Assembly: GCA_028683355.1 (NCBI GenBank) | Contig: JAQUIZ010000001.1 | Span: forward strand, 15,618-79,617 | Reading direction: 5' to 3' | DNA from: Fermentimonas sp. | GTDB lineage: Bacteria; Bacteroidota; Bacteroidia; Bacteroidales; Dysgonomonadaceae | DNA: 64,000 bases | Shown here: piece by piece, positions 6,056 to 19,785 of the stretch | Layout of the letters: each line of letters opens with the position of its first letter | Position numbering within the stretch: position 1 is the first letter of the stretch | Position numbers and translations under genes: made by a program | The notes under the pieces: generated by a model | The model's database searches: none | Told to the model about the DNA's origin: nothing | The model's input: the letters and a program-made list of their open reading frames with translations, nothing else

Positions 6056-8236
6056 ATGGAAGAAAGTAAAGAATTACAAGGCTTTTACAAGATATTCCGC
6101 TCGGTCATCTATGTCTCCATCCTGATGGAGTTCTTCGAGTATGCCATCGACCCTGCCATGCTTGACCATTGGGGAGGTATCCTCTGCGACATACACGGAC
6201 GCATCAAACGGTGGGTGATATACAATGACGGAAATCTTGCGTACAGCAAACTTGCCACGTTCCTGCTTATCTGCATCACCTGTATAGGCACGAGGAACAA
6301 GAAGAAACTGGAGTTCAATGGCCGCAAGCAAGTCCTCTATCCTATCATAGCAGGTATAGGGCTGGTTGTGCTTTCCGTATGGCTGTACGGTTATCCGATG
6401 GAAACAAGGCTTTATTCCTTGCGCCTGAACATCTGGCTCTATATGATAGCCTCCGTGGTCGGCGTAGTACTGGTTCACATTGCCCTTGACAATATCTCCA
6501 AATTCCTCAAAGAAGGTTTGCTCAAAGACCGCTTCAACTTTGAGAATGAAAGTTTTGAGCAATGCCGGGAGTTACAGGAAAACAAATACTCGGTCAATAT
6601 CCCCATGCGATATTATTACAAAGGCAAGTTCCGTAAAGGTTGGGTGAACATCAACAACCCTTTCCGAGGCACTTGGGTGGTCGGCACACCGGGCAGTGGT
6701 AAGACTTTTTCCATCATCGAGCCGTTTATCCGGCAGCACTCTGCAAAGGGCTTTGCCTTAGTAGTTTACGATTATAAGTTTCCGACATTGGCTACCAAAT
6801 TGTACTACCATTATAAGAAGAACCAGAAGCTCGGAAAACTGCCCAAGGGGTGCAAATTCAACATCATCAACTTCGTGGATGTGGAATACAGCCGCCGGGT
6901 AAATCCTATTCAGTTGAAATACATCAACAACCTTGCTGCCGCATCTGAAACCGCAGAAACCCTACTTGAGTCTTTACAAAAAGGCAAGAAAGAAGGAGGC
7001 GGCGGAAGTGACCAGTTCTTTCAGACATCCGCTGTCAACTTCCTGGCAGCCTGTATCTATTTCTTCTGCAACTGGGGCAAAGAACCCTTCGACAAGGACG
7101 GTAATATGCTCATGGCAGAGAAGGTACAGGACAAACAGACCAAGCGGATGATACCCACCGGACGTGTATTCAATTCCGCTGGCGAGGAAGTGGAACCGGC
7201 TTATTGGCTCGGAAAATATTCCGATATGCCTCATATTCTTTCTTTCCTTAACGAGAGCTATCAGACCATCTTTGAGGTGTTGGAGACCGACAACGAGGTG
7301 GCACCGTTGCTTGGTCCGTTCCAGACCGCCTTGAAGAACAAGGCAATGGAACAGTTGGAAGGTATGATTGGTACGCTGCGTGTCTATACCTCACGCCTTG
7401 CCACCAAGGAGAGCTATTGGATATTCCACAAGGACGGTGACGACTTCGACTTGAAAGTCTCTGACCCCAAGAATCCCTCATACCTGCTTATTGCCAATGA
7501 CCCCGAAATGGAGAGCATCATCGGGGCACTAAACGCCCTTATTCTCAATCGTCTGGTTACTCGAGTGAACACGGGTCAGGGCAAGAATATCCCGGTAAGC
7601 ATCATCGTGGATGAGTTGCCGACCCTGTATTTCCACAAGATAGACCGGTTGATTGGTACGGCACGAAGCAACAAGGTATCGGTAGCGTTGGGATTCCAGG
7701 AGTTGCCACAACTCGAAGCGGATTATGGCAAGGTGGGTATGCAGAAGATCATAACTACCGTAGGCAATGTGGTCAGCGGTTCGGCACGGGCGAAAGAGAC
7801 ATTGGAATGGCTGTCTTCCGACATCTTCGGCAAGGTGGTACAGCTCAAAAAGGGCGTAACCATCGACCGGGACAAGACCTCCATCAACCTGAATGAGAAC
7901 ATGGACAGCCTTGTTCCTGCATCCAAAATCTCCGATATGCCGACCGGCTGGATATGCGGACAGACTGCACGTGACTTTGTAAAGACTAAGACCGGCAAAG
8001 GCGGCTCTATGAACATTCAGGAAAGCGAGGAGTTCAAGACCTCCAAGTTCTACTGCAAGACGGACTTTGACATGAAAGAGATAAAAAAGGAAGAAGCAGG
8101 ATATGTTCCTCTCCCTAAGTTCTACACTTTCAAATCAAGGGATGAACGGGAGCGCATACTCTATAAAAACTTTGTACAGGTTGGCGAAGATGTCAAGGAG
8201 ATGATTAAGGAGATACAGAAGTATAAAGTGAAGTGA
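6056..8236 (+). CDS. type IV coupling protein (VirD4/TraD/TraG family ATPase)
   Basis: 726 aa with N-terminal TM segments. Walker A is VVGTPGSGKTFSIIEP and Walker B-like is PVSIIVDELPTLYF. Confidence 0.85.
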   Translation: MEESKELQGFYKIFRSVIYVSILMEFFEYAIDPAMLDHWGGILCDIHGRIKRWVIYNDGNLAYSKLATFLLICITCIGTRNKKKLEFNGRKQVLYPIIAGIGLVVLSVWLYGYPMETRLYSLRLNIWLYMIASVVGVVLVHIALDNISKFLKEGLLKDRFNFENESFEQCRELQENKYSVNIPMRYYYKGKFRKGWVNINNPFRGTWVVGTPGSGKTFSIIEPFIRQHSAKGFALVVYDYKFPTLATKLYYHYKKNQKLGKLPKGCKFNIINFVDVEYSRRVNPIQLKYINNLAAASETAETLLESLQKGKKEGGGGSDQFFQTSAVNFLAACIYFFCNWGKEPFDKDGNMLMAEKVQDKQTKRMIPTGRVFNSAGEEVEPAYWLGKYSDMPHILSFLNESYQTIFEVLETDNEVAPLLGPFQTALKNKAMEQLEGMIGTLRVYTSRLATKESYWIFHKDGDDFDLKVSDPKNPSYLLIANDPEMESIIGALNALILNRLVTRVNTGQGKNIPVSIIVDELPTLYFHKIDRLIGTARSNKVSVALGFQELPQLEADYGKVGMQKIITTVGNVVSGSARAKETLEWLSSDIFGKVVQLKKGVTIDRDKTSINLNENMDSLVPASKISDMPTGWICGQTARDFVKTKTGKGGSMNIQESEEFKTSKFYCKTDFDMKEIKKEEAGYVPLPKFYTFKSRDERERILYKNFVQVGEDVKEMIKEIQKYKVK

Positions 8237-8269
8237 GGTAGTCGTAATATATTGTTATTTACACTGATA

Positions 8270-8303
8270 GTGAGGACTGAGACCAACCAATCCTCACTTT
8301 TTT
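8270..8303 (+). terminator. hairpin plus T-run terminator after the coupling-protein gene
   Basis: GTGAGGA (8270-8276) pairs with TCCTCAC (8291-8297) and is followed by TTTTTT (8298-8303). Confidence 0.55.
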
Positions 8304-8331
8304 ATTAGAATAGATTACTCTTATATGTTGT

Positions 8332-10107
8332 TTAATATTTGCGATATTTTTGAATAAATGAATCAGCTTTATCTTTTATTTCTTTGTAATTTTCATAGCG
8401 ACCACCAAACATACCCTGCTTTATTGGCGCCCATTCATTTTGGAGGGAATCTGCACTTTCCCAAAACAAAGTATAAGGTTCTTCTCCCATTCCCCTATGT
8501 TTGTATTCCACTTCACTCCGAGTAAATTGCCCTAATGGAATTGAAAACTCATTTAGGATATAACATTTATTGTAGCCATAAACTAAAGACCTCATTCGTT
8601 CCCAAATATAAAAAGTATTCTCATACTCTGAATCCACAATAAAGCAATCTTTAAATATTGGTTTCAAGGAATTAAAAACAAAAAAACTAATTGGATAATA
8701 ATAGTTCGCTCCAATCAACTCATTCCATGTTTCATAATTCCAGTGGGTACTACCCAACATAGATAACAATTTCCATCTATACGAAACAGACATAAAGTTT
8801 GGAGTCGGCACTGATAATTTCAAGATACTATCAAGCTCCTTATAGCGATTGTATTTTACACAAGCAATACCTATAGCATTAAATAATAACATAGGAGCAA
8901 TTGAGTGTAAATATTGTGTCCCTTCACTTGTTATTTCTCCATTTTTAAAAGTTCTTGTACATAGCTTTACTAATAATTCACCAAAAGGCTTTATATGATA
9001 CCATTTCCCCCATCTTATTGCTAATAATGCTATTTCCATTAGGGGCATAATTGCAGTTTTATGAATATCCAAATATCTTAAAAACGCATCACGTGTTAGT
9101 CCGAAATCATATTTCGCATAGTTATTGATTGTGTTATAAGCATCATTACCCAAGCGTTCAACTAAATCAATATAGTCTATGTCATACTGATTTGATGACA
9201 GATATTTCTTACATTTTGCAATCATCATTTCATGCCCTAGTTTTCTGCTGACATGATTTTTATCTAATGCAGCAACTTGTTCGTACAACTCAGTAAACAT
9301 TTCATCTGCGCCTTCTATAGGGAGTAATTCACCATGTCTTGATATTGATAAAGTATTCAATGTTTCACTCGTCTTTCCTACAAATGCGTAGAATGAATTA
9401 TATCTTGAAACAGAGGGTTCTGTCATAATTTTGACAAGACCCTTGTCCCAATCACCGGACCAACCACATGTTATAAGTCCATAGTCCTCAAAAATCCTTT
9501 CAAGATATTTGTGCATTATTGGAGGATACTCATCCAATTCTTCTGAAGTATTCCTAAATTGGCAATCTATATAATCTCCATTGATTTTGATGATTGTTGG
9601 TATTTGGCAATGAACAAGAGGAGTCGCTTGTGAAATCGCAGCTTCATGCGAGATTACTTGCGGTGCTACACCTTCTGCTTCAAACGCCTGTTCTAATAGT
9701 CTGTCAAAGTTTGTCGTCAAAATAACACGAATGTAACCCTCTTTAGCTAATTTTGCTATTGCTATATGCGCCTTAGTAGGTCGTTTCCAGTCTAATTCTT
9801 TTTCATCTTCAGTGGGCTCAAAAAAAGGTTTCATCAGCTGAACTCGCTCAGTTGGTGTATTTACCAATTCTTCCAATAAAAAGGAGTAAGATGCCTCCTT
9901 CCCATATTTATCTTTAAACCATTGATGAGCATCAGTTTTTATCACTTCTCTGCTTGAAACAGCCAATTGTTCTATCAACCTCGTTTCTACATCCCAACCT
10001 GTTGGGATATGTGCCGAACGCGAGATTCCTGAACCAAGCAGAAGTGCATAGGCTCCTTTGTTGGAATACATAGAAAAAGACAGTGTTGTAAGTCGTTCTA
10101 TACTCAT
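8332..10107 (-). CDS. SIR2-like domain protein with an unassigned ~300-aa helical C-terminal region
   Basis: N-terminal SIR2_2-type motifs: YALLLGSGISRSAHIPTGWDV, VILTTNFDRLLEQAFE, IIKINGDYID, LITCGWSGDWDKG. No domain recognised in the C-terminal half. Confidence 0.85.
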   Translation of the reverse strand: MSIERLTTLSFSMYSNKGAYALLLGSGISRSAHIPTGWDVETRLIEQLAVSSREVIKTDAHQWFKDKYGKEASYSFLLEELVNTPTERVQLMKPFFEPTEDEKELDWKRPTKAHIAIAKLAKEGYIRVILTTNFDRLLEQAFEAEGVAPQVISHEAAISQATPLVHCQIPTIIKINGDYIDCQFRNTSEELDEYPPIMHKYLERIFEDYGLITCGWSGDWDKGLVKIMTEPSVSRYNSFYAFVGKTSETLNTLSISRHGELLPIEGADEMFTELYEQVAALDKNHVSRKLGHEMMIAKCKKYLSSNQYDIDYIDLVERLGNDAYNTINNYAKYDFGLTRDAFLRYLDIHKTAIMPLMEIALLAIRWGKWYHIKPFGELLVKLCTRTFKNGEITSEGTQYLHSIAPMLLFNAIGIACVKYNRYKELDSILKLSVPTPNFMSVSYRWKLLSMLGSTHWNYETWNELIGANYYYPISFFVFNSLKPIFKDCFIVDSEYENTFYIWERMRSLVYGYNKCYILNEFSIPLGQFTRSEVEYKHRGMGEEPYTLFWESADSLQNEWAPIKQGMFGGRYENYKEIKDKADSFIQKYRKY

Positions 10108-10133
10108 AATATCAAATCGTTCAAGTTGTTGTA

Positions 10134-10141
10134 CAAAGGTA
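10134..10141 (-). promoter_or_regulatory. candidate Bacteroides -7 promoter box for the SIR2 gene
   Basis: The plus strand reads CAAAGGTA, so the minus strand reads TACCTTTG (TAnnTTTG consensus). It lies 27 nt upstream of the start codon at 10107. Confidence 0.4.
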
Positions 10142-10216
10142 ACTCTTTTTATTGAGTCGTGACATTCAGATGATAATAAATATTGAGGTAATTCGCAATT
10201 TTTATGGCAAATAGTC

Positions 10217-10265
10217 TTACTTGTATAGTGGTTGATTGAAATAAATTCATTACTTTTGCAAGTAA
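10217..10265 (+). promoter_or_regulatory. candidate promoter and operator of the HTH-mod operon
   Basis: TACTTTTG (10251-10258) fits TAnnTTTG, 29 nt upstream of the ATG at 10287. It is embedded in the inverted repeat TTACTT-ttgc-AAGTAA (10250-10265). A further TTACTTG half-site lies at 10217-10223. Confidence 0.35.
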
Positions 10266-10286
10266 AGATGAATAATATAATCCAAT

Positions 10287-10529
10287 ATGGAAGATACTAA
10301 AGATATAAATCGAATCAAGGTGGTTCTTGTGGAGAAGAAACGGACCAACAAATGGTTGGCTGAACAATTAGGGAAAGACCCTGCCACGGTATCAAAATGG
10401 TGTACCAACACTTCACAACCAGGACTGGAAACATTATTGCAGATTGCCAATGTGCTTGAAGTTGATGTCAAGGAGTTGCTGAACTCCTCTTTGGACGAAA
10501 ACATTCAAATTGTCAGACTTGTCAAATAA
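10287..10529 (+). CDS. XRE-family helix-turn-helix protein, likely R-M controller (C protein)
   Basis: 80 aa with the HTH KWLAEQLGKDPATVSKWCTNTSQP. It lies 27 nt upstream of mod on the same strand. Confidence 0.75.
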   Translation: MEDTKDINRIKVVLVEKKRTNKWLAEQLGKDPATVSKWCTNTSQPGLETLLQIANVLEVDVKELLNSSLDENIQIVRLVK

Positions 10530-10556
10530 CAATACCAACCTTTTATCTCACAGATA

Positions 10557-12512
10557 ATGAATAAGAAAGAATTATATAATAAGATATTGCAGCTTGACGG
10601 TTTGACTAACGAAGAGAAGTCTGAGCTGTTGGGATTGCTGCGTAAGCAAAAGAAATATGGATTGGTATGGGAGGACAAGCCGGAGGATGTGGAAGAACGT
10701 CTGCGCAATGAGTTGCCCGTATTGGTTGAAGACACTTCAAAAGCCATTATCAGTACAGAAGCCGATGCACCTAACCATATTCTCATAGAGGGCGACAACC
10801 TTGAAGTTCTTACCACCCTCGTTTATACGCATGAAGGAAAGATTGATGTGATTTATATCGATCCGCCATATAATACAGGAAAAAATGATTTCGTCTACAA
10901 TGACTCTTTTGTGGATTCTGAAGATGCTTTTCGCCATTCCAAGTGGTTATCATTCATGCACAAGAGACTACGCATAGCTAAGCGATTATTATCTGAGGAT
11001 GGAATAATATTCATTCAAGTTGACGACAACGAATACGCTAATTTGAAATTGCTTTGTGATGAAATTTTAGGAGAGAAAAATGCTTTGGGTCCAATAATAC
11101 AGAACAAATTGAACGCAAAAAACGACACATTGAACATTCAAAAGAATCATGAGTATATTCTTTGCTATCGTAATAGAATTAAAACGGACAAGAGAACATC
11201 CAAAGAGATTCCTATATTACAAAATATTTCCTACGTTAAGAAAGAAGCATATAAAGAACAAGATAAGTTTTATTACCTGAATGACACAATAACTACGCGA
11301 GGTGAAGGAGGTACATTACGAAAACGTCCTAACTTAGGCTATTCTTTTTACGTAAATCCTAACACATTAGATTTTAAAACTGTCCGCGATTATGATTCTA
11401 CAAATATCCCATCATATACTGATGAGACACAAGTTTACAAAGATAATCAAGATATAATTGCAGAAGGCTATTCTGTTATTATAAGGCCTCCTCGTGTAAG
11501 GAATGAGCTTGGAGTGTGGACTTGGGATATGAAAAAGGCAAATGCTGAAAAAGAGAACCTTGTAGTTATAAATAATAGAAATGGATACTCTATTAAAAAA
11601 AGAACATTTGTTGACGAGGCAGATGTGGTTTTACGAGATTCTAAGTATTGGTATGAAAAAACATCAATTGGAAATTCTCGAAGTATTATAGAATTTTCTA
11701 CAAATGATGGTTCTAATACTTTCAATAATGTATTCAGCCATACGGTAAAATTCAATAACCCAAAAAATTTAGAACTAATAATTTATCTGATAAATTTATT
11801 TTATAGAAAGAATATAACTACTCTCGACTTTTTCGCAGGTTCTGGTACAACCCTCCACGCCACCATGCAACTGAATGCAGAAGATGGCGGACGCCGCAAG
11901 TGCATCCTCGTCACCAACAACGAGAATAACATCTGCGAAGAAGTAACCTACGAACGCAACAAACGTGTAATAAACGGCTACACCAATCCGAAAGGGGAAG
12001 AAGTTCCGGGACTGACAGGTAACACATTGCGCTACTATCGCACAAGTTTTGTGGGCAGAAGCCGAAGCATGAAAAATATGCGTCAGCTGATGAATCTCTC
12101 TACCGATATGCTCTGCATTAAGGAAGACCTCTATACAGAGCAACCGAAGTTTGGAGAGCAACAGACCTATAAAAATGTATTCCGCTACTTCGACAATGGA
12201 AAAAAGCGCATGATGATGATCTACCGCGAAGAAGCTGTGCAACAGCTGGTAGATTTAATCCAAAAGACTGACTACGAGGGTAAGATGCTCGTGTATGTAT
12301 TCTCACCGAGCGAAGACCCATGGGAAGGCGAATTTGAAGAAGTTCAAGACAAGGTGCAACTTTGTGCTTTGCCACAAGCTATTTATAATGCCTACCGTCG
12401 CATACTACCTAAGAAAAAAGACGAGCTTATTATCTCTGACGATACAAAAACAACCGTTCAGGAGGATATGCCGAATGGAATGTTGAACTTTGATGAAGAG
12501 GAGGATTTGTAA
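10557..12512 (+). CDS. mod: type III R-M DNA methyltransferase (Mod, beta-class N6A/N4C MTase)
   Basis: Motif IV VIYIDPPYNTGKNDF precedes motif I LDFFAGSGTTLHA (beta permutation). There is a long variable central region, and a helicase-nuclease Res lies downstream. Confidence 0.85.
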   Translation: MNKKELYNKILQLDGLTNEEKSELLGLLRKQKKYGLVWEDKPEDVEERLRNELPVLVEDTSKAIISTEADAPNHILIEGDNLEVLTTLVYTHEGKIDVIYIDPPYNTGKNDFVYNDSFVDSEDAFRHSKWLSFMHKRLRIAKRLLSEDGIIFIQVDDNEYANLKLLCDEILGEKNALGPIIQNKLNAKNDTLNIQKNHEYILCYRNRIKTDKRTSKEIPILQNISYVKKEAYKEQDKFYYLNDTITTRGEGGTLRKRPNLGYSFYVNPNTLDFKTVRDYDSTNIPSYTDETQVYKDNQDIIAEGYSVIIRPPRVRNELGVWTWDMKKANAEKENLVVINNRNGYSIKKRTFVDEADVVLRDSKYWYEKTSIGNSRSIIEFSTNDGSNTFNNVFSHTVKFNNPKNLELIIYLINLFYRKNITTLDFFAGSGTTLHATMQLNAEDGGRRKCILVTNNENNICEEVTYERNKRVINGYTNPKGEEVPGLTGNTLRYYRTSFVGRSRSMKNMRQLMNLSTDMLCIKEDLYTEQPKFGEQQTYKNVFRYFDNGKKRMMMIYREEAVQQLVDLIQKTDYEGKMLVYVFSPSEDPWEGEFEEVQDKVQLCALPQAIYNAYRRILPKKKDELIISDDTKTTVQEDMPNGMLNFDEEEDL

Positions 12513-13594
12513 TGAGCGAGCAGGAGAAGCACAAAAAGAAAAAAGAACAGGTGACGGTACGCAGCAGTGCAGCCGAATACCTGAACTATGTGGCATCTGT
12601 CGGTAATGACGAGCAACAGATAGAGATACGTTATGAAGACGAAAATATCTGGCTCACACAGAAACTGATGGCGATGCTATACGGTGTGGAAGTACACACC
12701 ATCAACTATCACATCAAGAAAATATTCTCGGACAGCGAGTTGCAGGAAACGGCAGTTATTCGAAAATTTCGAATAACTGCTCCTGACGGCAAACAATACA
12801 CCACGAACCACTATTCATTGGAAATGATTATTGCCGTCGGATTCAAGGTGAATTCCGAGAAAGCTGTGCAGTTCAGGAAATGGGTAAATGGTATTGCTAA
12901 GGAATACACCATCAAAGGCTGGGTGATGGACTCGGAAAGACTGAAACGTGGAACCTTTCTGACAGACAAGTATTTCGATGAGCAATTAGAGCGCATCCGC
13001 GAGATACGCATGAGCGAGCGTCTGTTCTATCAGAAAATAACAGACCTTTATGCCACAGCCGTTGACTACGATAAGACAGCATTGGCCACCCGTCGATTCT
13101 ATGCAACGGTACAGAACAAAATGCACTTTGCCGTTCATGGTCATACAGCAGCCGAACTCATTGTGGAACGGGCAAATGCATCCAAAGAACACATGGGACT
13201 GACTACATGGGCTGATGCCCCCGATGGCAAAATCAAGAAAAGCGATGTGGTGATAGCAAAGAACTATCTTTCAGATACCGAAATGGGACAATTGGAACGC
13301 ATGGTTACGGCTTATCTTGATTTTGCAGAAACAATGACCATGCGCCATATCCCATTGACTATGGCAGATTGGGAACAACGTCTGAACAACTTTATCAATC
13401 TCTTTGAATACGGTCTGTTGAAAGATGCAGGACGTGTAAGTGCCGAAATAGCACGATTACATGCAGAGACGGAATTCGAGAAATACAGAATCATACAAGA
13501 CAAACTGTTTTTGTCTGACTACGACCGCTTTCTATTGGAAATGAAAGAGATTGAGAACAAAAACCATGGAAACAAAAAAGAGGAGAAGCAATGA
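12512..13594 (+). CDS. rhuM: RhuM-family protein embedded in the R-M operon
   Basis: IEIRYEDENIWLTQKLMAMLYGVEVHTINYHIKKIFSD and AVGFKVNSEKAVQFRKWVNGI match my memory of RhuM-family sequences. Its start overlaps the mod stop (TAATG) and its stop overlaps the res start (ATGA). Confidence 0.75.
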   Translation: MSEQEKHKKKKEQVTVRSSAAEYLNYVASVGNDEQQIEIRYEDENIWLTQKLMAMLYGVEVHTINYHIKKIFSDSELQETAVIRKFRITAPDGKQYTTNHYSLEMIIAVGFKVNSEKAVQFRKWVNGIAKEYTIKGWVMDSERLKRGTFLTDKYFDEQLERIREIRMSERLFYQKITDLYATAVDYDKTALATRRFYATVQNKMHFAVHGHTAAELIVERANASKEHMGLTTWADAPDGKIKKSDVVIAKNYLSDTEMGQLERMVTAYLDFAETMTMRHIPLTMADWEQRLNNFINLFEYGLLKDAGRVSAEIARLHAETEFEKYRIIQDKLFLSDYDRFLLEMKEIENKNHGNKKEEKQ

Positions 13595-15954
13595 AGAATT
13601 TAGAATATCAACAAAGAGCGGTAAACGAATTGATTGACAAGACTATCCGTCTACTGAATGCGGGCGGACAGCGCAATAAATTGGTGTTTGAAGCCACGAC
13701 CGGTGCCGGTAAAACCGTAATGGCGTGTCAGATGCTTGCCGGTCTGATGGACGAACTGCATGATCGGGGCGACAGCCGTTATCAAGAAGTGGCATTCATT
13801 TGGTTCGCTCCTCGCAAATTGCACATACAGAGTTACGAAAAGTTGAAAGACACCTTTGAAGAGACTCGCACACTTCGTCCCGTAATGTTTGATGAACTTG
13901 ATCAGAACGAAGGCATCCGCCCGGGTGAAATACTTTTCGTAAACTGGGAAAGCGTTAATAAAGAAAGTAACGTGATGGTGCGCGAGGGTGATTGTTCGTT
14001 GTCACTTTATGAAATTACAGACAAGACGAAAGAAGAATTCGGTTTGCCTATCATAGCCATCATCGACGAAGAACATATGTTCTGGTCAAAGACTGCGGAT
14101 AAGTCGGCTGCCGTACTTGACAAAATCAATCCTATGGTAGAAATCCGCATCTCCGCCACACCTAAAACCGCCAACCCAAAGGAAAAAGTAACGGTGTATC
14201 GTCAGGATGTGATAGCCGCCGAAATGATTAAGAAAGAGGTGGTACTCAACCCGGAGATAGAACTGAATTTCAGCGATGAGCTGGAACTTAATGCCAACCT
14301 TATCAAAGCGGCTTCGGATAAACGTAACCAAATAGCAGAAGCATATAAGTCAGTAGGTTCAGACATCAACCCTTTGCTACTCATTCAGCTGCCTAACGAT
14401 ACAAAAGAAAATATGACGACGGAAGATGCTGCCATAGCCGATCAGGTAAAGAAGTATCTTGAAGTGATGTGTGGTATTACCACCGACAACCACCGTCTGG
14501 CGATATGGCTTGCAAATGAGAAAGAGAATCTGACCGATTTAGAAAAGCCTGACAACCTGACTGAGGTACTGCTTTTCAAAGAAGCCATAGCCTTGGGTTG
14601 GGACTGTCCTCGCGCCGCCGTGCTACTTATATTCCGCAAACTGCAAAGCGACCAGTTTACTATTCAGACTGTTGGTCGTATTATGCGTATGCCGGAACAG
14701 AAGCATTATCCCAAAGAGATGCTCAATGTTGGCTATGTGTTTACCGATATAGCTAAAGACAAGATACAAATCGTTACAGCCGATGCCGACTATATCCTGA
14801 ACAACACTGTTACAGCCTACCGCCGTGAGAATTTGAAAAATGTATGGTTGCCTGCCTGCTATGCGGAACGTCCCAATATAGAACGTAACTATTTAGGGCC
14901 TGACTTTCGCAAAGTGCTCTATGATGAAGCCCGACATTTCTGGGACTTTGCAGAAGGCAATTTACTGTTCTCGTTAGAGGAATTAGCCAAGCTGGATAAT
15001 ACTAATGACGAAAGCGGTCCATTACCTGAGACTGATGACCTAAAAATCAATGAAAATAGGAAAAAGGTAACCAACTCTTTACGCCTTGATGTCAAGAACA
15101 TCAACATTGAGATACCGCAAGACGTACATTTCCAGAACGAGGAACAGATATTAGAAGTTGATACCGTAAAATACGCAAGAAAAGCTACTGAGATTGACCG
15201 CGTGTTTATGGCATACATCGCCACAAAAGGGCATCAATTCGAGAGTAAAGGTCGCGCTGACAAAATTGCAAGTTATCTGCTTGAAATATTGGCCGACTTC
15301 TTCGGTATCTTCGACACAGACGCCAAAAAGGTGGTGCTATATCACTTAAACAAGCCTAAGTTTGACCGCATTATAGACATGGCACTGGAGAAATATGCCC
15401 GTATGCGCGATAGAGCCAAGAAAGCATCTGCAGCCAAGAGAGTATTCAAAAAATACGATTGGGAGGTGCCTGAAGAACGTACTTACGACAATGACACCAA
15501 TCATATAGAGGAAAGCCGGAATCACGCACTCCTGCCATTTGTGCAACTCAACCAGGCATCGAGTCCGGAAAAGAACTTCATAGCCTATCTGGAGCAAAAC
15601 GGACAGTATATAGATTGGTGGTACAAGAATGGAGACAACGGCAAACAGCATTATGCCATAGAATACAGCACCGGCAACGAAAACGGCAAGTCGCTGTTTT
15701 ATGTGGATTTTATCATCCGTATGAAAAACGGTCATATCTATCTCTTCGATACCAAAAGTGCAGGCAGCGACGCATTTGCACACAACAAGCACAACGCATT
15801 GCTGCAATACATCAAAGAAAACACTTCGGACGAAACTCCATTATCGGGAGGTGTCATCCTGCAGCAAGGCGAGAACTGGTTATATTCCCCACTCCCTATC
15901 GAGAATACCACCGATACATTGAACTGGAACTGTTTTTACCCACAAAACGCATAA
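13591..15954 (+). CDS. res: type III restriction enzyme Res subunit (SF2 helicase plus C-terminal PD-(D/E)XK)
   Basis: Walker A EATTGAGKTVMA, DEAH-like IIDEEHMFW and motif VI TVGRIMRMP. The C-terminal nuclease-like motif is FYVDFIIRMKNGHIYLFDTKS. Confidence 0.8.
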   Translation: MKNLEYQQRAVNELIDKTIRLLNAGGQRNKLVFEATTGAGKTVMACQMLAGLMDELHDRGDSRYQEVAFIWFAPRKLHIQSYEKLKDTFEETRTLRPVMFDELDQNEGIRPGEILFVNWESVNKESNVMVREGDCSLSLYEITDKTKEEFGLPIIAIIDEEHMFWSKTADKSAAVLDKINPMVEIRISATPKTANPKEKVTVYRQDVIAAEMIKKEVVLNPEIELNFSDELELNANLIKAASDKRNQIAEAYKSVGSDINPLLLIQLPNDTKENMTTEDAAIADQVKKYLEVMCGITTDNHRLAIWLANEKENLTDLEKPDNLTEVLLFKEAIALGWDCPRAAVLLIFRKLQSDQFTIQTVGRIMRMPEQKHYPKEMLNVGYVFTDIAKDKIQIVTADADYILNNTVTAYRRENLKNVWLPACYAERPNIERNYLGPDFRKVLYDEARHFWDFAEGNLLFSLEELAKLDNTNDESGPLPETDDLKINENRKKVTNSLRLDVKNINIEIPQDVHFQNEEQILEVDTVKYARKATEIDRVFMAYIATKGHQFESKGRADKIASYLLEILADFFGIFDTDAKKVVLYHLNKPKFDRIIDMALEKYARMRDRAKKASAAKRVFKKYDWEVPEERTYDNDTNHIEESRNHALLPFVQLNQASSPEKNFIAYLEQNGQYIDWWYKNGDNGKQHYAIEYSTGNENGKSLFYVDFIIRMKNGHIYLFDTKSAGSDAFAHNKHNALLQYIKENTSDETPLSGGVILQQGENWLYSPLPIENTTDTLNWNCFYPQNA

Positions 15955-16191: not shown

Positions 16192-18192
16192 ATGCTCATA
16201 CAAAGAATAAAGATTAGCAATTTCAAGACTTACCTGTCGCTCGACCTCGATTTAACGGTAGATGACGACCGCCCTATTATACTCATCGGTGGTTCAAACG
16301 GTGGAGGTAAAACCACCCTGTTCGAAGCTATAAGCGGTGCATTGTATGGATTGAAAATAGAGAACAAGGAACACTTTATGGAATTGCTCAATCAAGGGGC
16401 AGTCAATCGGGTGAAGCCAGAAATCAGTCTGCAAATCACCTTTGTTGGCAAAGTGCTTGGTCAGCAACAGAAGTATATCCTAAAACGCATATACCAGCTT
16501 AATCCACAAGGTCGTCCGCTTGAAAGTGTATCGCTGAACATGAACGGCAATATGTATGTGTATGGCACAATGACTGCACCCAAAGAAAGGGTGCGGGCTG
16601 AACAGGAAATCAGCAAGATAATCAAGGCCAACCTGCCGCAGGAATTGAGCCAGTATTTTCTGTTTGATGCGATGCAGTCGAGCGAGTTACTGAAAAAGAA
16701 TGTTTTTCAGCAGACCATACGCGACAACTTTGAGAATGTGCTTGGCTTCAAAAAGTATCTGCAACTGAAACGTGCAGCAGAGAAATTACAACAAGAGTGG
16801 GCAGAACAACGATTGGAAGCAGAAAAAGAAGCCAAAGAATACAACTCGTTATGCAATCAGAAAGAGCAGTTGGTAATTGATTTGAACACTTGCCTTGCAG
16901 AGCAAGACAGGTTGTATAAATATCTGTCATCGGTGGAAGATGAATACCAGCGAGCTAAAGATGGTGCGCAACAGGCTGCCAACCTAAGCAAACGTATACA
17001 GGACGTTGACGGTAAAATACGAGCCATAGCTGAGGAAGCTGCCATTTATGCAGAAAACTTGAAGATATTTATAAACAACATAGAAATCAATGTATTCCTT
17101 CCCAAATTGGCCTCCAACCTTTCTCAGGAAATCAACAATATATTACGAGTAAAGGAACAACTCCAAAAACAGAGCACTGGTGCCTATCCGATTGAGACAC
17201 TTCGTGATGTAACGTCAAAAATTATAGACTATTTGAAAGAGCTGTCGCTATGCAGTCAAGCAGTGGATGAAGAAAACGTGGTCTCGCATATTGTAGCCAT
17301 GCAGAACACAACCAATGCCAAAGATCCATACGACTACTTGAACACTGCCGAGGTGGATGCACTTCGGGAACTGCCGAAAAAAGGCAATGGCAACCAATTC
17401 GTTTCCATTGACCGCAAAAGGCAGGATATGGAAATACAGCTTGCCAACCTGGATAATCTCAGGACCGAGAAGCGCACACTTGAACAGACACAGGCTGGAG
17501 GAAACGGTTTACTTATAGTCAACTATGAAGATGCCAAACGTTCTGTGGAGAAGTTGAAAACGCAAGAAGACAGTCTCAAAAACGAGATTCAGCGTTTGGA
17601 AAAACGTATTCATCAATTCGATGTACAGATACAGCAGGAACCGGATGTGAAATTTGATACACTAGTCAAGTTGCGTCCGTTCTTCGATAAAGTGGCAGAC
17701 AATCTGCTGAAAAAGAAAAAGACTCAGATAGAAACAGAGATGCAGTCGCAACTCAATCGCCTGCTGGTATCATATAAAGGACATGTAGGCCGTGTGGAAT
17801 TGTCAGACAGCATGGAGAATTTCAATATCAAACTCTATCACAGTGCAGGCAATGAAATATCGTTGAACCAGCTGAATGCTGCTTCAAAGCAGATATTCAT
17901 ACAGGTATTGTTGAAAGTGCTACGCAATCTTGGCGACTATAACCCACCGGTTATGATTGATACCGTGATGGGTGTACTTGACAATGAAAGCCGTGATGCT
18001 TTAATGGAAGAATACTTTCCACAATTGGCAGAACAGACCATTCTGCTCTGTACTACATCGGAAATACGCACGGATAGCGACTATATAAAACTGGAGCCAT
18101 TCATCTCGAAAACATATACTCTGCATCGTAATGTAGAGGAACAGAATACAACTATAGATGAAGGCTATTTTGGAATACCCCTTAATCAGTAA
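16192..18192 (+). CDS. DndD-like / Rad50-SMC-like ABC ATPase
   Basis: Walker A LIGGSNGGGKTTLFEAI and a long charged, coiled-coil-like middle. The C-terminus PPVMIDTVMGVLDNESRDALMEEYFPQLAEQTILLCTTSEI resembles the DndD Walker B/D-loop end. Confidence 0.8.
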   Translation: MLIQRIKISNFKTYLSLDLDLTVDDDRPIILIGGSNGGGKTTLFEAISGALYGLKIENKEHFMELLNQGAVNRVKPEISLQITFVGKVLGQQQKYILKRIYQLNPQGRPLESVSLNMNGNMYVYGTMTAPKERVRAEQEISKIIKANLPQELSQYFLFDAMQSSELLKKNVFQQTIRDNFENVLGFKKYLQLKRAAEKLQQEWAEQRLEAEKEAKEYNSLCNQKEQLVIDLNTCLAEQDRLYKYLSSVEDEYQRAKDGAQQAANLSKRIQDVDGKIRAIAEEAAIYAENLKIFINNIEINVFLPKLASNLSQEINNILRVKEQLQKQSTGAYPIETLRDVTSKIIDYLKELSLCSQAVDEENVVSHIVAMQNTTNAKDPYDYLNTAEVDALRELPKKGNGNQFVSIDRKRQDMEIQLANLDNLRTEKRTLEQTQAGGNGLLIVNYEDAKRSVEKLKTQEDSLKNEIQRLEKRIHQFDVQIQQEPDVKFDTLVKLRPFFDKVADNLLKKKKTQIETEMQSQLNRLLVSYKGHVGRVELSDSMENFNIKLYHSAGNEISLNQLNAASKQIFIQVLLKVLRNLGDYNPPVMIDTVMGVLDNESRDALMEEYFPQLAEQTILLCTTSEIRTDSDYIKLEPFISKTYTLHRNVEEQNTTIDEGYFGIPLNQ

Positions 18193-18198
18193 ATAGTT

Positions 18199-19785
18199 AT
18201 GAGTATAATAAACTTTTCAAATACCCGTCAGATGGAGGGGATTCTTGACGAAATAAGTCAAGTAAAGGAACTTATCGAGAGTAAGATAAATTTGTCGCGC
18301 ACCGCCGACAGAGAAAAACGTGCAAGTCTGACTGCAAACAAGGTAATGCGCATTTGCTTTATAGTCGGTTTGAGTCTGACAACAGAACGCAAGGAAGAAG
18401 AATACAAGGATATACAGCTATCTGCCACATCGGCACGTATCGTTCCGAGCTTCTTCACGATGCACGATTTATCTACCTTATATTCTGCATTACTGAAATT
18501 GCGCTATGCCAATCTGAATATAGATTGGTCACAAAATGCCGTGCTTTCACGCATTATTGCAGCCGAAATGCTGCGTGGCAGAGACTACCTGTTGATAGAC
18601 AATAATTTGGATTCCATATTATACGCCGTAAACAACAAGGTTGCAATGGTAAAAGATATTCCTGCCCTGAACTTGATAATAGGCAACTATGGCGATGTGG
18701 AAATGGAGGCTACTCTTGATATCAACAGCCGTGACATTACCAATTCGCAAATCATCATTGCAGGTGCTACGGGTTCAGGAAAGACGAATCTGCTTGCAGT
18801 GCTGATGCAACAGTTCAGAGCATTATCGTCTGAATCGCAATATCCGGTAAACTTCCTGCTTTTCGATTACAAAGGAGAGTTCAGCGACATTCAGAACAAT
18901 CACTGGCTTTCACATTTCGATGTGGATCGCAGCTGTATCTTAGACCCGATTGAGCATCCCCTACCGTTCACGCCGTTCAAGGATTTTACAGACCGCCCAA
19001 TCAACGAAATAAATCTTTATTCATCCGAAATGGCTTCGGCTCTATGCTCAATTGACCGAGTATCAGCCAGTGCAAATATGAATAACCGATTGAGTGAAGC
19101 CATTGTAGAAGCATATAAGAAAACAGAAGGCGCGCCCATTACATTCAACATGATGTTGGAAGAATATCAAGCCAAGATGACAGATGCCGGAAAGGACGAC
19201 AGCATTTCGTCTGTATTGAAACAGTTGGTGCGTGCTAACATCTTCGAGGAGGAAGACAAAGCCAGCCTTATCGATGACTGCTACATCATAAAAATGGACG
19301 GCTACCCCAAAGACGGCCCGATAGCAAAGGCTATTGTCTATTTCATTATCTCAAAGCTTAATAATATATACGAACAACTCGAAAAACAAGCGACTAACGA
19401 GGATGTAGTGCAAATCCGCCATTTCTCGATCATTGACGAAGCGCACTATATGCTGGATTTTGACAATCGCCCATTACGGAATCTGATTGCCGTAGGCAGA
19501 AACAAGGGATTAAGCATTATCCTTGCCACCCAAAATATGAGCAGTTTCAAGAGCAAAGGCTTTGATTTTTATGCTAATGCCCAATATCCGCTCATCATGA
19601 AGCAGCAAACTATTGACGACAAGGTTATCAAAGACCTATATGGGGTAAGCGGACAAGAACTGCAAGAGGTGCGTACTGCCATAGCCGGACTCCAGAAAGG
19701 CGAACTGATTATCAAAGACCAAATGGCCTTTGCTTTGGGTATGGGTAAGAAATATAAGAAAATCAATGTGACACATTTGATATAA
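18199..19785 (+). CDS. HerA/FtsK-like P-loop ATPase with an unassigned N-terminal domain
   Basis: Walker A IIIAGATGSGKTNLLAVL, Walker B FSIIDEAHYMLD and LSIILATQNMSSF. The first ~170 aa have no recognisable motif. Confidence 0.75.
   Translation: MSIINFSNTRQMEGILDEISQVKELIESKINLSRTADREKRASLTANKVMRICFIVGLSLTTERKEEEYKDIQLSATSARIVPSFFTMHDLSTLYSALLKLRYANLNIDWSQNAVLSRIIAAEMLRGRDYLLIDNNLDSILYAVNNKVAMVKDIPALNLIIGNYGDVEMEATLDINSRDITNSQIIIAGATGSGKTNLLAVLMQQFRALSSESQYPVNFLLFDYKGEFSDIQNNHWLSHFDVDRSCILDPIEHPLPFTPFKDFTDRPINEINLYSSEMASALCSIDRVSASANMNNRLSEAIVEAYKKTEGAPITFNMMLEEYQAKMTDAGKDDSISSVLKQLVRANIFEEEDKASLIDDCYIIKMDGYPKDGPIAKAIVYFIISKLNNIYEQLEKQATNEDVVQIRHFSIIDEAHYMLDFDNRPLRNLIAVGRNKGLSIILATQNMSSFKSKGFDFYANAQYPLIMKQQTIDDKVIKDLYGVSGQELQEVRTAIAGLQKGELIIKDQMAFALGMGKKYKKINVTHLI

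What the first reader, a model, noticed from the sequence alone, without database searches (positions are those of the whole stretch)
8332..10107. Stand-alone SIR2-domain protein whose expected catalytic His position reads Asn, with an unassigned C-terminal half
- The N-terminal ~290 aa carry the SIR2_2-type landmarks GSGIS, TTNFDRLLE and CGWSGDWD.
- Where the consensus I remember has K-L-H-G-S, this protein reads I-I-K-I-N-G-D-Y. That His is required in ThsA/DSR-type NADases.
- The C-terminal ~300 aa are helical-looking and are not a SLOG, TIR, HerA-partner or pAgo-associated architecture that I recognise.
- At 591 aa it is far shorter than DSR1/DSR2. No TIR (ThsB) or adjacent HerA gene accompanies it.
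- It has its own TAnnTTTG-type box (10134-10141) and diverges from the R-M controller gene.
- It could be an unclassified single-gene SIR2 defence protein, or a non-canonical or inactive SIR2 used as a sensor.
Basis: partly seen in the sequence, partly recalled or inferred. Interest (0 to 1): 0.65.

Follow-up and report, generated by a model that had tools for sequence, protein, structure and literature searches.

The report
SIR2 defence candidate with Asn-for-His site
This gene encodes a member of a very large but untested family of candidate anti-phage SIR2 (NAD-cleaving) proteins in which the normally essential catalytic histidine is naturally either histidine or asparagine, so it is probably an active variant and not a dead enzyme.

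Summary
ORF 8332-10107(-) encodes an intact 591-aa protein with an N-terminal SIR2 domain. Its Asn176 (KINGDY) lies in the column of the catalytic His of GsSir2-APAZ (H186) and KomC (H146).

It is not unclassified. It matches PADLOC candidate family PDC-S65 end to end (E 8e-184). That family has at least 1252 clusters at 50% identity and spans many bacterial phyla and Archaea. I found no paper on it in the library searched.

Across 256 family members this column is His in 143 and Asn in 113, and never anything else. The states are interleaved on the tree (about 25 switches; the closest H/N pair is 75% identical). The rest of the NAD pocket is invariant. Asn is therefore a selected alternative, not decay.

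The C-terminal 330 aa fold confidently into an all-alpha domain with no match in PDB, BFVD or Pfam. It is not APAZ, SLOG or DSR2-like.

The gene is cargo of a Bacteroidales conjugative element. In the six further copy and relative sets examined it sits divergently beside an HTH-Type III Mod-RhuM-Res cassette. Elsewhere the family is embedded in or abuts Type I R-M operons in 13 of 80 species. A sister clade has a 259-aa membrane partner that is absent here.

Most likely it is a self-contained, trigger-activated NAD+-depleting abortive-infection effector. This is untested.

The parts
8332..10107 (-). Complete ORF (591 aa plus stop) of the PDC-S65-family SIR2 protein
   Evidence: ORF listing. 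Full-length PADLOC PDC-S65 hit, E 8e-184. 100% coverage alignment to homologues without frameshifts. The first 12 residues are conserved, so the ATG at 10107 is the start, not the M13 chosen by one gene caller (P0001, 579 aa).
9322..10107 (-). N-terminal SIR2 (NAD-binding Rossmann plus small lobe) domain, residues 1 to about 262
   Evidence: Pfam SIR2_2. AF2 model with pLDDT 90.5. Foldseek hits over about 300 columns to the SIR2 domains of SPARSA 8y80_E (E 3.6e-9), DSR2, KomC and ThsA. All family-invariant residues lie here.
10021..10035 (-). GSGIS glycine-rich NAD-phosphate loop (residues 25-29)
   Evidence: G25, G27 and S29 are invariant in 92 diverse family members. The loop aligns to GAGTS of GsSir2.
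9703..9717 (-). TTNFD motif (residues 131-135). N133 is the Asn of the SIR2 Asn-His dyad
   Evidence: Translation. N133 aligns with GsSir2 N142, and N142A abolishes NADase there (PMC10781750). N133 and D135 are invariant.
9580..9582 (-). Codon AAT for Asn176, in the column of the catalytic His
   Evidence: It aligns to GsSir2 H186 and KomC H146. The family column is H in 143 and N in 113 of 256. AAT is one transversion from CAT (His).
9445..9468 (-). CGWSGDWD motif (residues 214-221)
   Evidence: G215 and W216 are invariant; C214, S217, W220 and D221 are at least 90% conserved. It aligns to SGYSGRDE of GsSir2.
8335..9321 (-). Family-specific all-alpha C-terminal domain (residues 263-591), proposed sensor/regulatory domain
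   Evidence: AF2 on its own gives pLDDT 86.4 and pTM 0.85. There is no significant fold match in PDB (best E 0.26, TM 0.29 or less) or BFVD (best E 0.44). There is no Pfam or PDB sequence hit. It is conserved in length and architecture across the family but is about half as conserved as the SIR2 domain.
10134..10141 (-). Bacteroidetes-type -7 promoter box TACCTTTG (TAnnTTTG), 26 nt upstream of the ATG
   Evidence: Read from the sequence. Conserved as TAACTTTG in relatives L006 and L010. The 100 nt upstream of the ATG are identical in independent copies of the element. No transcript data were available.
10287..10529 (+). Divergent 80-aa HTH_3 (controller-like) gene with its own TACTTTTG box at 10251-10258; first gene of the linked Type III R-M cassette
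   Evidence: Pfam HTH_3, E 7e-10. The same divergent arrangement is seen in L006-L013 and L098-L101.
10557..15954 (+). Linked Type III R-M cassette: Mod (10557-12512), RhuM/PDC-S05 (12512-13594), Res (13591-15954). It is a physical neighbour, not shown to be a functional partner
   Evidence: Pfam and PADLOC hits. It is co-inherited with the SIR2 gene on different mobile elements at 74-76% SIR2 identity.

Best explanation
The gene encodes a member of the PDC-S65 family. The protein has two domains: an N-terminal SIR2 NAD+-binding and NAD+-cleaving domain, closest to the SIR2 of short-Argonaute SPARSA systems, fused to a family-specific all-alpha C-terminal domain.

It is cargo of a Bacteroidales conjugative element. 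It is transcribed from its own Bacteroidetes-type promoter, back to back with a Type III R-M/RhuM cassette, at the edge of a defence island.

Most likely mechanism (inferred, not shown): the protein is a self-contained abortive-infection effector. The C-terminal domain keeps the SIR2 domain silent until it recognises an invader-derived cue. The SIR2 domain then consumes NAD+ and halts the infected or invaded cell, as DSR2, ThsA, SPARSA and KomC do.

Asn176 in the catalytic-His column is a natural, selected alternative to His in this family, not a sign of inactivation. Asn can probably take over the hydrogen-bonding and positioning role proposed for that His in GsSir2.
For: Shown:
- Full-length PDC-S65 match. 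His-type and Asn-type relatives match the same model end to end.
- The SIR2 fold has its best structural and sequence neighbours among defence NADases: SPARSA, DSR2, KomC and ThsA.
- The family is very large (1252 clusters at E 1e-30 or better). It is scattered over Bacteroidota, Proteobacteria, Chloroflexota, Acidobacteriota, Cyanobacteria, Actinomycetota, Firmicutes and Archaea, and over plasmids. This is typical of horizontally moving defence genes.
- The local context is a defence island on an ICE: TraM, DUF4138 and coupling-protein genes, then Type III R-M, RhuM, a DndD/HerA-like pair and Gabija.
- Other family members sit within or beside Type I R-M operons (13 of 80), beside SMODS+SLATT, or beside a Schlafen-type helicase.
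- The His/Asn column holds only H (143) or N (113) in 256 sequences. An NJ tree needs at least 25 changes. There are H/N pairs at 75% and 63% identity. No second-site column switches cleanly with it.
- G25, G27, S29, H114, T131, N133, F134, D135, K174, G177, D178, Y179, N186, G210, G215 and W216 are invariant in both types.
- Within the Asn-type Bacteroidales clade, about 38% of SIR2-domain columns are invariant against about 20% in the C-terminal domain.

From the literature:
- N142 and H186 of GsSir2 are the dyad, and either alanine mutant loses NADase activity.
- The authors propose that H186 acts through a hydrogen bond that moves the HGD loop and admits water, not as a direct base (PMC10781750).
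Against: - No member of PDC-S65 has been tested for defence or NADase activity. I found no paper on it.
- In every characterised defence SIR2, mutating this His abolishes function: GsSir2 H186A, KomC H146A (PMC13454610). H171A forms of DSR2 appear among the PDB entries, and I recall that mutant to be inactive.
- A KomC H146N mutant was deposited as a complex with NAD fragments (PDB 9xvc). That may mean Asn at this position impairs turnover in that family.
- The sensor role of the C-terminal domain rests only on analogy and on its faster evolution.
- The steady linkage to R-M genes could mean the protein is not autonomous.
Confidence: 0.55

Rival explanations
1. Asn-type members such as this one are catalytically dead pseudo-enzymes. 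They still bind NAD+ or a related nucleotide and act as sensors or scaffolds. The toxic or protective output comes from the C-terminal domain or from a neighbour: the R-M enzymes here, the 259-aa membrane protein in the sister clade.
For: - His-to-Ala mutants at this position are inactive in GsSir2 and KomC.
- An engineered KomC H146N was used to obtain a complex with NAD fragments (PDB 9xvc).
- An Asn-type sister clade has a tightly coupled membrane-protein gene that could be the effector.
- Arg225, Arg230 and Arg234, conserved in most His-type proteins, are often lost in Asn-type ones.
Against: - The column is never anything but H or N in 256 sequences. A dead site should drift to other residues.
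- Switching between H and N is frequent and happens between close relatives with no change of architecture.
- All other pocket residues stay invariant in Asn-type proteins.
- Most Asn-type loci, this one included, have no conserved partner that could supply an output.
- A third of Asn-type proteins keep the three arginines.
Confidence: 0.17
2. The protein is a back-up guard of the adjacent restriction-modification system, on the PrrC/EcoprrI model. The R-M complex holds it inactive, and it fires when an invader's anti-restriction protein disables that complex.
For: - The same divergent SIR2 / HTH-Mod-RhuM-Res arrangement, with a conserved shared intergenic region, recurs on three different mobile-element backbones at 74-76% SIR2 identity. 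It is also present in all near-identical copies.
- 13 of 80 species-level loci have the family gene within or abutting a Type I operon (mostly hsdM-hsdS-SIR2-hsdR). Seven of them have hsdS ending within 11 nt of the SIR2 start.
- One betaproteobacterial member is followed by a Mod-like gene and RhuM.
- From established knowledge: PrrC and RloC occupy the same kind of slot in Type I loci.
Against: - About 80% of family loci show no R-M gene within the flanks examined, so the family as a whole cannot depend on R-M.
- R-M operons are general landing sites for defence genes.
- In near-identical ICE copies the R-M cassette has been swapped for a diverged allele, with a breakpoint at about 10200-10226. 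The SIR2 gene and its promoter stay 100% identical, so the two behave as separate recombination modules.
- The associated R-M is Type III here and Type I elsewhere. That argues against a specific protein-protein interface.
Confidence: 0.15
3. It is not a defence gene but a housekeeping-type or element-maintenance sirtuin, for example a protein deacylase or ADP-ribosyltransferase that regulates conjugation or host physiology.
For: - It lies directly next to the conjugative coupling-protein gene.
- There are weak local similarities to CobB-type deacylases around the TTNFD motif.
Against: - NCBIfam deacylase scores are 14-22 bits against cut-offs of 221-395.
- The matches cover only about 35-50 residues.
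- The best structural neighbours are defence NADases.
- The distribution is patchy and tied to islands and mobile elements.
- The local GC is low, 35% against 47-52% for the element backbone, which marks it as acquired cargo.
Confidence: 0.05

Closest known systems
PADLOC phage-defence candidate PDC-S65 (single-gene candidate system, PADLOC-DB v2)
   Same: Full-length profile match (residues 2-589 vs profile 15-590 of 592, E 8e-184). Distant His-type and Asn-type relatives match the same model. Same length and the same two-domain architecture.
   Different: Nothing differs in sequence terms; this is a member. PDC-S65 is only a computational candidate. I found no experimental test, mechanism or publication for it. 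The catalogue entry does not record the His/Asn dimorphism, the R-M linkage or the membrane partner seen in some clades.
SIR2-APAZ of SPARSA (Geobacter sulfurreducens GsSir2/Ago; PDB 8in8, 8jkz, 8y80)
   Same: Closest solved relative of the SIR2 domain (profile E 2.9e-21; Foldseek E 3.6e-9). Nearly the same total length (587 vs 591 aa). The motifs TTNFD, K-x-[H/N]-GD-[FY] and GxSG are the same.
   Different: The C-terminal half is not APAZ: there is no fold or sequence match. Neither flanking gene is a pAgo gene. The dyad is Asn-Asn here and Asn-His in GsSir2.
DSR2 (Bacillus subtilis defence-associated sirtuin 2)
   Same: A single-protein system with an N-terminal SIR2 NADase and a helical C-terminal sensor region. 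This is the functional model I propose here. The SIR2 domains superpose.
   Different: DSR2 is about 1000 aa with MID and alpha-solenoid CTD domains. The C-terminal model here does not retrieve DSR2. In DSR2 the corresponding dyad position is His (H171; H171A entries are listed).
Thoeris ThsA and Kongming KomC
   Same: Defence SIR2 NADases whose SIR2 domains match in fold and, weakly, in sequence. KomC's IIKFHGDF aligns with IIKINGDY.
   Different: ThsA carries a SLOG domain and needs ThsB. KomC is 264 aa and works with KomA and KomB and a dITP signal. None of these parts is adjacent here.
PrrC / RloC anticodon nucleases embedded in Type I R-M loci (recalled from established knowledge)
   Same: The genomic logic is similar: an abortive-infection effector sits within or beside an R-M operon. 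The family does this in 13 of 80 species, and here it sits beside a Type III system.
   Different: The proteins are unrelated (SIR2 vs ABC-ATPase plus nuclease). No physical or regulatory coupling to R-M has been shown. Most family members are not next to R-M genes.

Membership tests
PADLOC PDC-S65 | Full-length match to the PDC-S65 profile HMM (PDLC05061) | tested here: met
   E 8.1e-184, 611 bits, residues 2-589 vs profile 15-590 of 592.
PADLOC PDC-S65 | Single-gene system lying in defence-island context | tested here: met
   No conserved operon partner in this locus. The neighbours are Type III R-M, RhuM, a DndD/HerA-like pair and Gabija.
PADLOC PDC-S65 | Demonstrated anti-phage activity | not testable with these tools
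   It is a candidate family only. No paper mentions it in the library searched.
SIR2 superfamily (Pfam SIR2_2) | Profile match above the gathering score and a Rossmann-type SIR2 fold | tested here: met
   32.4 bits vs cut-off 24.5. Foldseek probability 1.00 to several SIR2 structures.
SIR2 superfamily (Pfam SIR2_2) | Asn-His catalytic dyad | tested here: not met
   The Asn is present (N133). The His column holds Asn176.
SPARSA SIR2-APAZ | C-terminal APAZ domain | tested here: not met
   The C-terminal model has no significant PDB match although SPARSA structures are in the library. PADLOC Aga_SIR2 hits stop at residue 320 or earlier.
SPARSA SIR2-APAZ | Adjacent short pAgo gene | tested here: not met
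   The flanking genes are the T4 coupling-protein gene and the HTH gene of the Type III R-M cassette.
Thoeris ThsA | SIR2 plus SLOG domain, with a TIR-domain ThsB neighbour | tested here: not met
   Only weak N-terminal ThsA hits (E 5.5e-4, residues 109-163). No SLOG in Pfam. None of the neighbouring genes scanned has a TIR-domain hit.
DSR1 / DSR2 | Protein of about 1000-1250 aa with family-specific middle and C-terminal domains; NCBIfam Dsr1 cut-off | tested here: not met
   591 aa. Dsr1 score 14.8 vs cut-off 1400. The C-terminal model does not retrieve DSR2.
SIR2-HerA (Gao_19 / Nezha) | Short SIR2 protein with an adjacent, co-oriented HerA helicase gene | tested here: not met
   PADLOC SIR2 models give only partial hits, E about 1e-4. 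The nearest HerA/DndH-like gene is 8 kb away and is paired with a DndD/PbeC-like gene.
Sirtuin protein deacylases (CobB type) | NCBIfam equivalog score above the cut-off | tested here: not met
   Scores of 14-22 bits vs cut-offs of 221-395, covering about 35-70 residues.

The most novel reading that the evidence does not exclude
The strict His-or-Asn alternation at the dyad position may be an adaptive toggle and not a neutral equivalence. The two states could give different chemistry (for example plain NAD+ hydrolysis versus ADP-ribosyl transfer or cyclisation). They could also differ in activation threshold, or in sensitivity to phage counter-measures such as NAD+-reconstitution pathways or SIR2 inhibitors. 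Repeated switching would then be a trace of an arms race. Together with an orphan sensor fold and recurrent embedding in R-M operons, PDC-S65 would be a mechanistically distinct SIR2 defence class.
Probability: 0.15. Interest if true: 0.75.

Novelty: new variant of a known kind. Interest (0 to 1): 0.5.

Why it matters
SIR2 NADases are one of the main effector types of prokaryotic immunity, and their Asn-His dyad is treated as obligatory. This is a very large family: at least 1252 clusters at 50% identity, found in at least 484 species genomes from Bacteroidota to methanogens. About 40% of its members naturally carry Asn in place of that His while keeping everything else.

If Asn-type proteins are active, the accepted role of the His in defence SIR2 enzymes needs revising. 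It would be a positioning or hydrogen-bonding residue and not a base, as already hinted for GsSir2. 'Missing His' could then no longer be used to call SIR2 homologues inactive in annotation.

The family also offers a new sensor fold. It is a clean natural experiment too, with H/N pairs at 75% identity. A few point mutants and an NAD+ assay would settle the question.

For this locus, it adds one more layer to a multi-system defence island carried by a conjugative element. Near-identical copies of that element occur in landfill, digester, manure, freshwater and wastewater metagenomes.

Tried and rejected
1. H166 (PLVHCQ) as a relocated catalytic His: rejected. It is equally conserved in His-type and Asn-type proteins (140 of 151). 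It aligns to a non-catalytic Thr of GsSir2. A mutual-information scan found no column that switches cleanly with the H/N state.
2. C-terminal half as APAZ, SLOG or a DSR2 CTD: rejected by Foldseek on a separate high-confidence model (best PDB E 0.26) and by profile searches. Only generic helical-repeat noise was returned.
3. A viral relative of the C-terminal domain: none in BFVD.
4. The 259-aa membrane partner of the sister clade, sought in this window: absent (tblastn). It has no PADLOC family. It is unrelated to the 258-aa neighbour of a His-type homologue.
5. The HerA-like gene at 18199-19785 as a SIR2-HerA partner: rejected. It is 8 kb away, scores best as DndH-like, and is paired with a DndD/PbeC-like gene.
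6. Literature on PDC-S65, on natural His-to-Asn SIR2 proteins, or on SIR2 genes inside hsd operons: nothing relevant found.
7. Transcript evidence for the promoter: the one search (kind 'any') returned only DNA metagenome runs holding the sequence. No RNA-only search was made.
8. Apparent loss of the R-M cassette in other samples (contigs diverging at 10226): this turned out to be an allelic replacement of the HTH/Mod region, not an absence.
Full report
**1. The observation**

The minus-strand ORF 8332-10107 is real. It is 591 aa and starts at an ATG.

Pfam finds only SIR2_2, over residues 128-218, at 32.4 bits against a cut-off of 24.5. NCBIfam deacylase and Dsr1 models score far below their cut-offs.

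One gene caller started the protein at M13 (P0001, 579 aa). Residues 3-12 are conserved in homologues, so the 591-aa reading is right.

The gene is intact. It aligns end to end with 26 homologues of 59-82% identity. Independent metagenome contigs more than 99% identical carry no indels.

**2. Which residue sits in the catalytic-His column**

The closest solved protein by sequence is the SIR2-APAZ subunit of Geobacter SPARSA (8in8, 8jkz; phmmer E 9e-6, family-profile E 2.9e-21).

- Its TTNFD aligns with TTNFD of the query.
- Its KIHGDF aligns with KINGDY.
- Counting along the chain, these residues are N142 and H186.
- The paper on that structure shows N142A and H186A each lose NADase activity and calls them the catalytic dyad (PMC10781750).

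KomC of the Kongming system aligns in the same way, IIKFHGDF to tiiKvnGDY. H146A abolishes its defence (PMC13454610).

So Asn176 (codon AAT, 9580-9582) truly occupies the His column. H166 of PLVHCQ aligns to a non-catalytic Thr.

**3. What family it is**

PADLOC-DB contains a profile that matches the whole protein. This is PDC-S65 (PDLC05061): E 8e-184, residues 2-589 against profile positions 15-590 of 592. PDC stands for 'phage defence candidate' (usage in PMC11514479). I found no paper mentioning PDC-S65.

The next best PADLOC hits are pAgo-associated SIR2 models. They cover the N-terminal half only.

The word-indexed search found 2458 proteins among its candidates. The nearest are Bacteroidales proteins, and every source name shown is 'SIR2 family protein', 'NAD-dependent SIR2 family protein deacetylase' or 'hypothetical protein'.

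A profile search of 1.84 billion cluster representatives found:
- 4285 hits at E 0.001 or better;
- 1252 hits at E 1e-30 or better;
- a top 150 that is almost entirely 565-620 aa long and matched end to end.

A scan of one genome per species found at least 484 species carrying a relative. They span Bacteroidota, Proteobacteria, Chloroflexota, Acidobacteriota, Cyanobacteria, Actinomycetota, Clostridia, Planctomycetota and Archaea (Methanothrix, Methanosarcina, Heimdallarchaeota). Plasmids carry the family too, with 53 records.

Four distant representatives, two His-type and two Asn-type, all match PDC-S65 full length.

**4. The His/Asn column across the family**

| Sample | His | Asn | Other |
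|---|---|---|---|
| Query plus 150 diverse representatives | 90 | 61 | 0 |
| 80 species-level genomic loci | 53 | 27 | 0 |
| Pooled alignment of 256 sequences | 143 | 113 | 0 |

- The query belongs to a 26-member all-Asn clade.
- Elsewhere the states are interleaved. On a neighbour-joining tree built without that column, parsimony needs at least 25 changes. Such a tree is noisy at about 30% identity.
- The pattern does not rest on the tree alone. There are H/N pairs at 75% and 63% identity. 41 of 254 sequences have a nearest neighbour of the other state.
- Asn-type proteins occur in Bacteroidota, Ignavibacteria, Cyanobium, Bdellovibrionales, Thermodesulfobacteriota, Caldisericota, Acidobacteria, Latescibacterota and methanogens.
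- His (CAY) and Asn (AAY) differ by one transversion. None of the other one-step neighbours (Gln, Tyr, Asp, Arg, Leu, Pro) was seen.
- In both types the following are invariant: G25, G27, S29, Y74, H114, T131, N133, F134, D135, L137, K174, G177, D178, Y179, N186, G210, G215, W216.
- No other column switches cleanly with the H/N state. The best-correlated positions (R225, R230, R234, mostly Arg in His-type proteins) are retained in about a third of Asn-type proteins.
- Within the Asn-type Bacteroidales clade the SIR2 domain is about twice as conserved as the C-terminal half (roughly 38% against 20% invariant columns).

I read this as purifying selection for 'His or Asn' at a working active site, not as decay.

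**5. The C-terminal half**

AlphaFold2 with a 92-sequence alignment gives a confident model (pLDDT 90.5). It has an alpha/beta SIR2 domain up to about residue 262, followed by about 16 helices and a small hairpin.

Foldseek with the whole model finds only SIR2 domains: SPARSA 8y80_E, DSR2, KomC and ThsA, with about 300 aligned columns. The longer DSR2 alignments have rmsd above 20 Å.

I modelled residues 262-591 separately (pLDDT 86.4, pTM 0.85). That model has:
- no significant match in PDB (best E 0.26, TM 0.29 or less);
- no significant match in BFVD (best E 0.44);
- no hit for its profile in Pfam or among PDB sequences.

It is therefore not APAZ, SLOG or the DSR2 solenoid. It is a family-specific all-alpha domain of unknown function. 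No library of predicted cellular structures was available.

**6. Genomic setting**

The window is a metagenomic Bacteroidales contig.

- Upstream of the finding lie conjugative-transposon genes: TraM, DUF4138, and a TraG/TraD-type coupling protein at 6056-8236.
- The SIR2 gene converges on the coupling-protein gene. A GC-rich hairpin plus T-run at 8270-8304 lies between them (read).
- On the other side, 179 nt away and divergent, begins HTH (10287-10529), Type III Mod (10557-12512), RhuM/PDC-S05 (12512-13594) and Type III Res (13591-15954).
- Then come a DndD/PbeC-like gene and a DndH/HerA-like gene (16192-19785), and Gabija GajA/GajB (19801-22555).
- GC drops from 47-52% in the element backbone to about 35% over the SIR2 gene.

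Both divergent genes have TAnnTTTG boxes: TACCTTTG at 10141-10134 and TACTTTTG at 10251-10258.

**7. Is it really stand-alone?**

In this locus, yes. The pattern among relatives is informative, though.

a. Homologues of 74-76% identity (P0007, P0011) have the same divergent HTH-Mod-RhuM-Res cassette but lie on different backbones, which are mobilisable elements with relaxase and MobC. The intergenic region is 86% conserved, including both promoter boxes.

b. Near-identical copies of this ICE always keep TraG-SIR2-HTH-Mod-RhuM-Res-DndD-like-HerA-like. Their Mod proteins are 599, 602 or 651 aa long. From about position 10200 the HTH/Mod region is a diverged allele, while the SIR2 gene and its first 100 upstream bases stay identical. 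The R-M module has been exchanged by recombination independently of SIR2.

c. A sister clade of 61-63% identity, also Asn-type (Macellibacteroides, Prevotella, Dysgonomonas), has a 259-aa protein gene 3 nt downstream. That protein has N- and C-terminal hydrophobic helices and no Pfam or PADLOC family. It is absent from this window.

d. Among 80 species-level loci, 13 lie within or beside a co-oriented Type I R-M operon, mostly hsdM-hsdS-SIR2-hsdR. This was verified with Pfam Methylase_S, N6_Mtase/HsdM_N and HSDR_N/T1RH-like_C. In seven of them hsdS ends within 11 nt of the SIR2 start, and in an eighth hsdS starts 2 nt after the SIR2 stop.

e. One Limnohabitans member is followed by a Mod-like gene and RhuM.

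f. Others lie beside SMODS+SLATT or a Schlafen-type helicase, or on a plasmid-like contig with ArdC, ParB and UmuDC.

g. There is no association between the H/N state and R-M embedding: 10 H and 3 N against 53 H and 27 N overall.

**8. Mechanism**

Shown:
- a SIR2 fold with a conserved NAD pocket;
- membership of a defence-island-enriched candidate family;
- carriage on mobile elements;
- its own promoter box;
- an orphan C-terminal domain that evolves faster than the SIR2 domain.

Inferred: the protein is a one-component abortive-infection effector on the DSR2 model. The C-terminal domain would sense a phage or plasmid cue and release SIR2 NAD+ consumption.

Why Asn could work: in GsSir2 the authors propose that H186 is not a direct base. 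They suggest it forms a hydrogen bond to a backbone carbonyl that moves the HGD loop and lets water reach C1'. An Asn carboxamide could make such a bond. This is my inference.

Against this: alanine mutants at this His are dead in every characterised defence SIR2, and an engineered KomC H146N was used for a structure with NAD fragments.

I give 0.55 to the autonomous active-effector reading, 0.17 to an inactive sensor or scaffold, 0.15 to a PrrC-like guard of the R-M system, and 0.05 to a non-defence role.

**9. Comparison with known systems and novelty**

By sequence, the protein is a member of PDC-S65.

It works most like DSR2 (single protein, SIR2 plus helical sensor). Its SIR2 domain is closest to SPARSA. 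It fails the defining features of the named systems:
- SPARSA: no APAZ, no pAgo.
- Thoeris: no SLOG, no ThsB.
- DSR1/DSR2: wrong size and domains.
- SIR2-HerA: no adjacent HerA.
- Kongming: none of its partner components is adjacent.
- CobB-type deacylases: scores far below the cut-offs.

The family is already catalogued, so the gene itself is not a discovery. I found no description of:
- the strict His/Asn dimorphism at the dyad;
- the orphan C-terminal fold;
- the recurrent placement in or next to R-M operons, and the clade-specific membrane partner.

I rate it a new variant of a known kind, with interest 0.5. It is worth a small, decisive set of mutants and NAD+ assays.

Noticed in passing
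window 10200-12512; loci L098, L099, L100: Near-identical copies of this ICE carry different alleles of the HTH/Type III Mod region. The Mod proteins are 599, 602 or 651 aa. The recombination breakpoint lies at about 10200-10226 in the SIR2-HTH intergenic region. The SIR2 gene and its proximal promoter stay 100% identical. This looks like R-M specificity swapping by homologous recombination.
   Followed up: partly
window 12512-13594: A RhuM-family gene (PADLOC candidate PDC-S05, E 3e-143) is inserted between mod and res of the Type III R-M operon, with overlapping stop and start codons. The same insertion is conserved in relatives L006 and L010. A Limnohabitans SIR2 locus (L069) also has a Mod-like gene plus RhuM.
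   Followed up: partly
window 16192-19785: A gene pair encodes a 666-aa DndD/PbeC-like SMC-type ATPase and a 528-aa DndH/HerA-like ATPase. In sister copies a 72-aa Sp-DndD ORF precedes them. No other dnd or pbe genes were seen nearby. This may be a separate two- or three-gene defence module.
   Followed up: no
window 19801-22555: A complete Gabija system: GajA (E 2e-128) and GajB (E 1e-91), with overlapping genes, in a very low-GC segment (32-36%).
   Followed up: no
window 23191-24210: A 339-aa protein with REase-ARP and PDDEXK_13 nuclease domains follows a 175-aa ORF with no family. It may be a further defence gene at the end of the island.
   Followed up: no
L001 7779-8558; L005 7773-8552; L017 7776-8555: In a sister clade of Asn-type PDC-S65 proteins (61-63% identical to the query) a 259-aa protein gene lies 3 nt downstream. 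The protein has one N-terminal and two C-terminal hydrophobic helices and no Pfam or PADLOC family. It may be a membrane effector or partner, which would make those loci two-gene systems.
   Followed up: partly
loci L025, L029, L047, L053, L055, L057, L064, L067, L075, L076, L082, L085, L088: PDC-S65 genes lie within or beside co-oriented Type I R-M operons, mostly hsdM-hsdS-SIR2-hsdR. In seven loci hsdS ends within 11 nt of the SIR2 start, and in L053 hsdS starts 2 nt after the SIR2 stop. PrrC and RloC occupy the same kind of slot.
   Followed up: partly
window 8200-10300 in runs X1-X20: Runs holding 47-100% of the sampled words of this stretch come from landfill, bioreactor, freshwater, manure, activated-sludge, biogas, bovine and wastewater metagenomes of at least 12 studies. 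The four runs laid on it matched at more than 99% identity. The element is widespread and recently disseminated.
   Followed up: no
window 8270-8304: A hairpin (GTGAGGA, 14 nt, TCCTCAC) followed by TTTTTT lies between the convergent coupling-protein and SIR2 genes. It is probably the terminator of the coupling-protein gene. The consensus scan missed it because its loop is longer than 8 nt.
   Followed up: no
L102 (Haloferax virus Halfgib1) and L103 (Vibrio phage 10N.286.45.B12_PE001): Viral or prophage-like elements encode 556-613-aa proteins with a related His-type SIR2 N-terminus (KLHGDY, KLHGDF) and different C-terminal halves. One is annotated only as 'tetratricopeptide repeat protein'.
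   Followed up: partly
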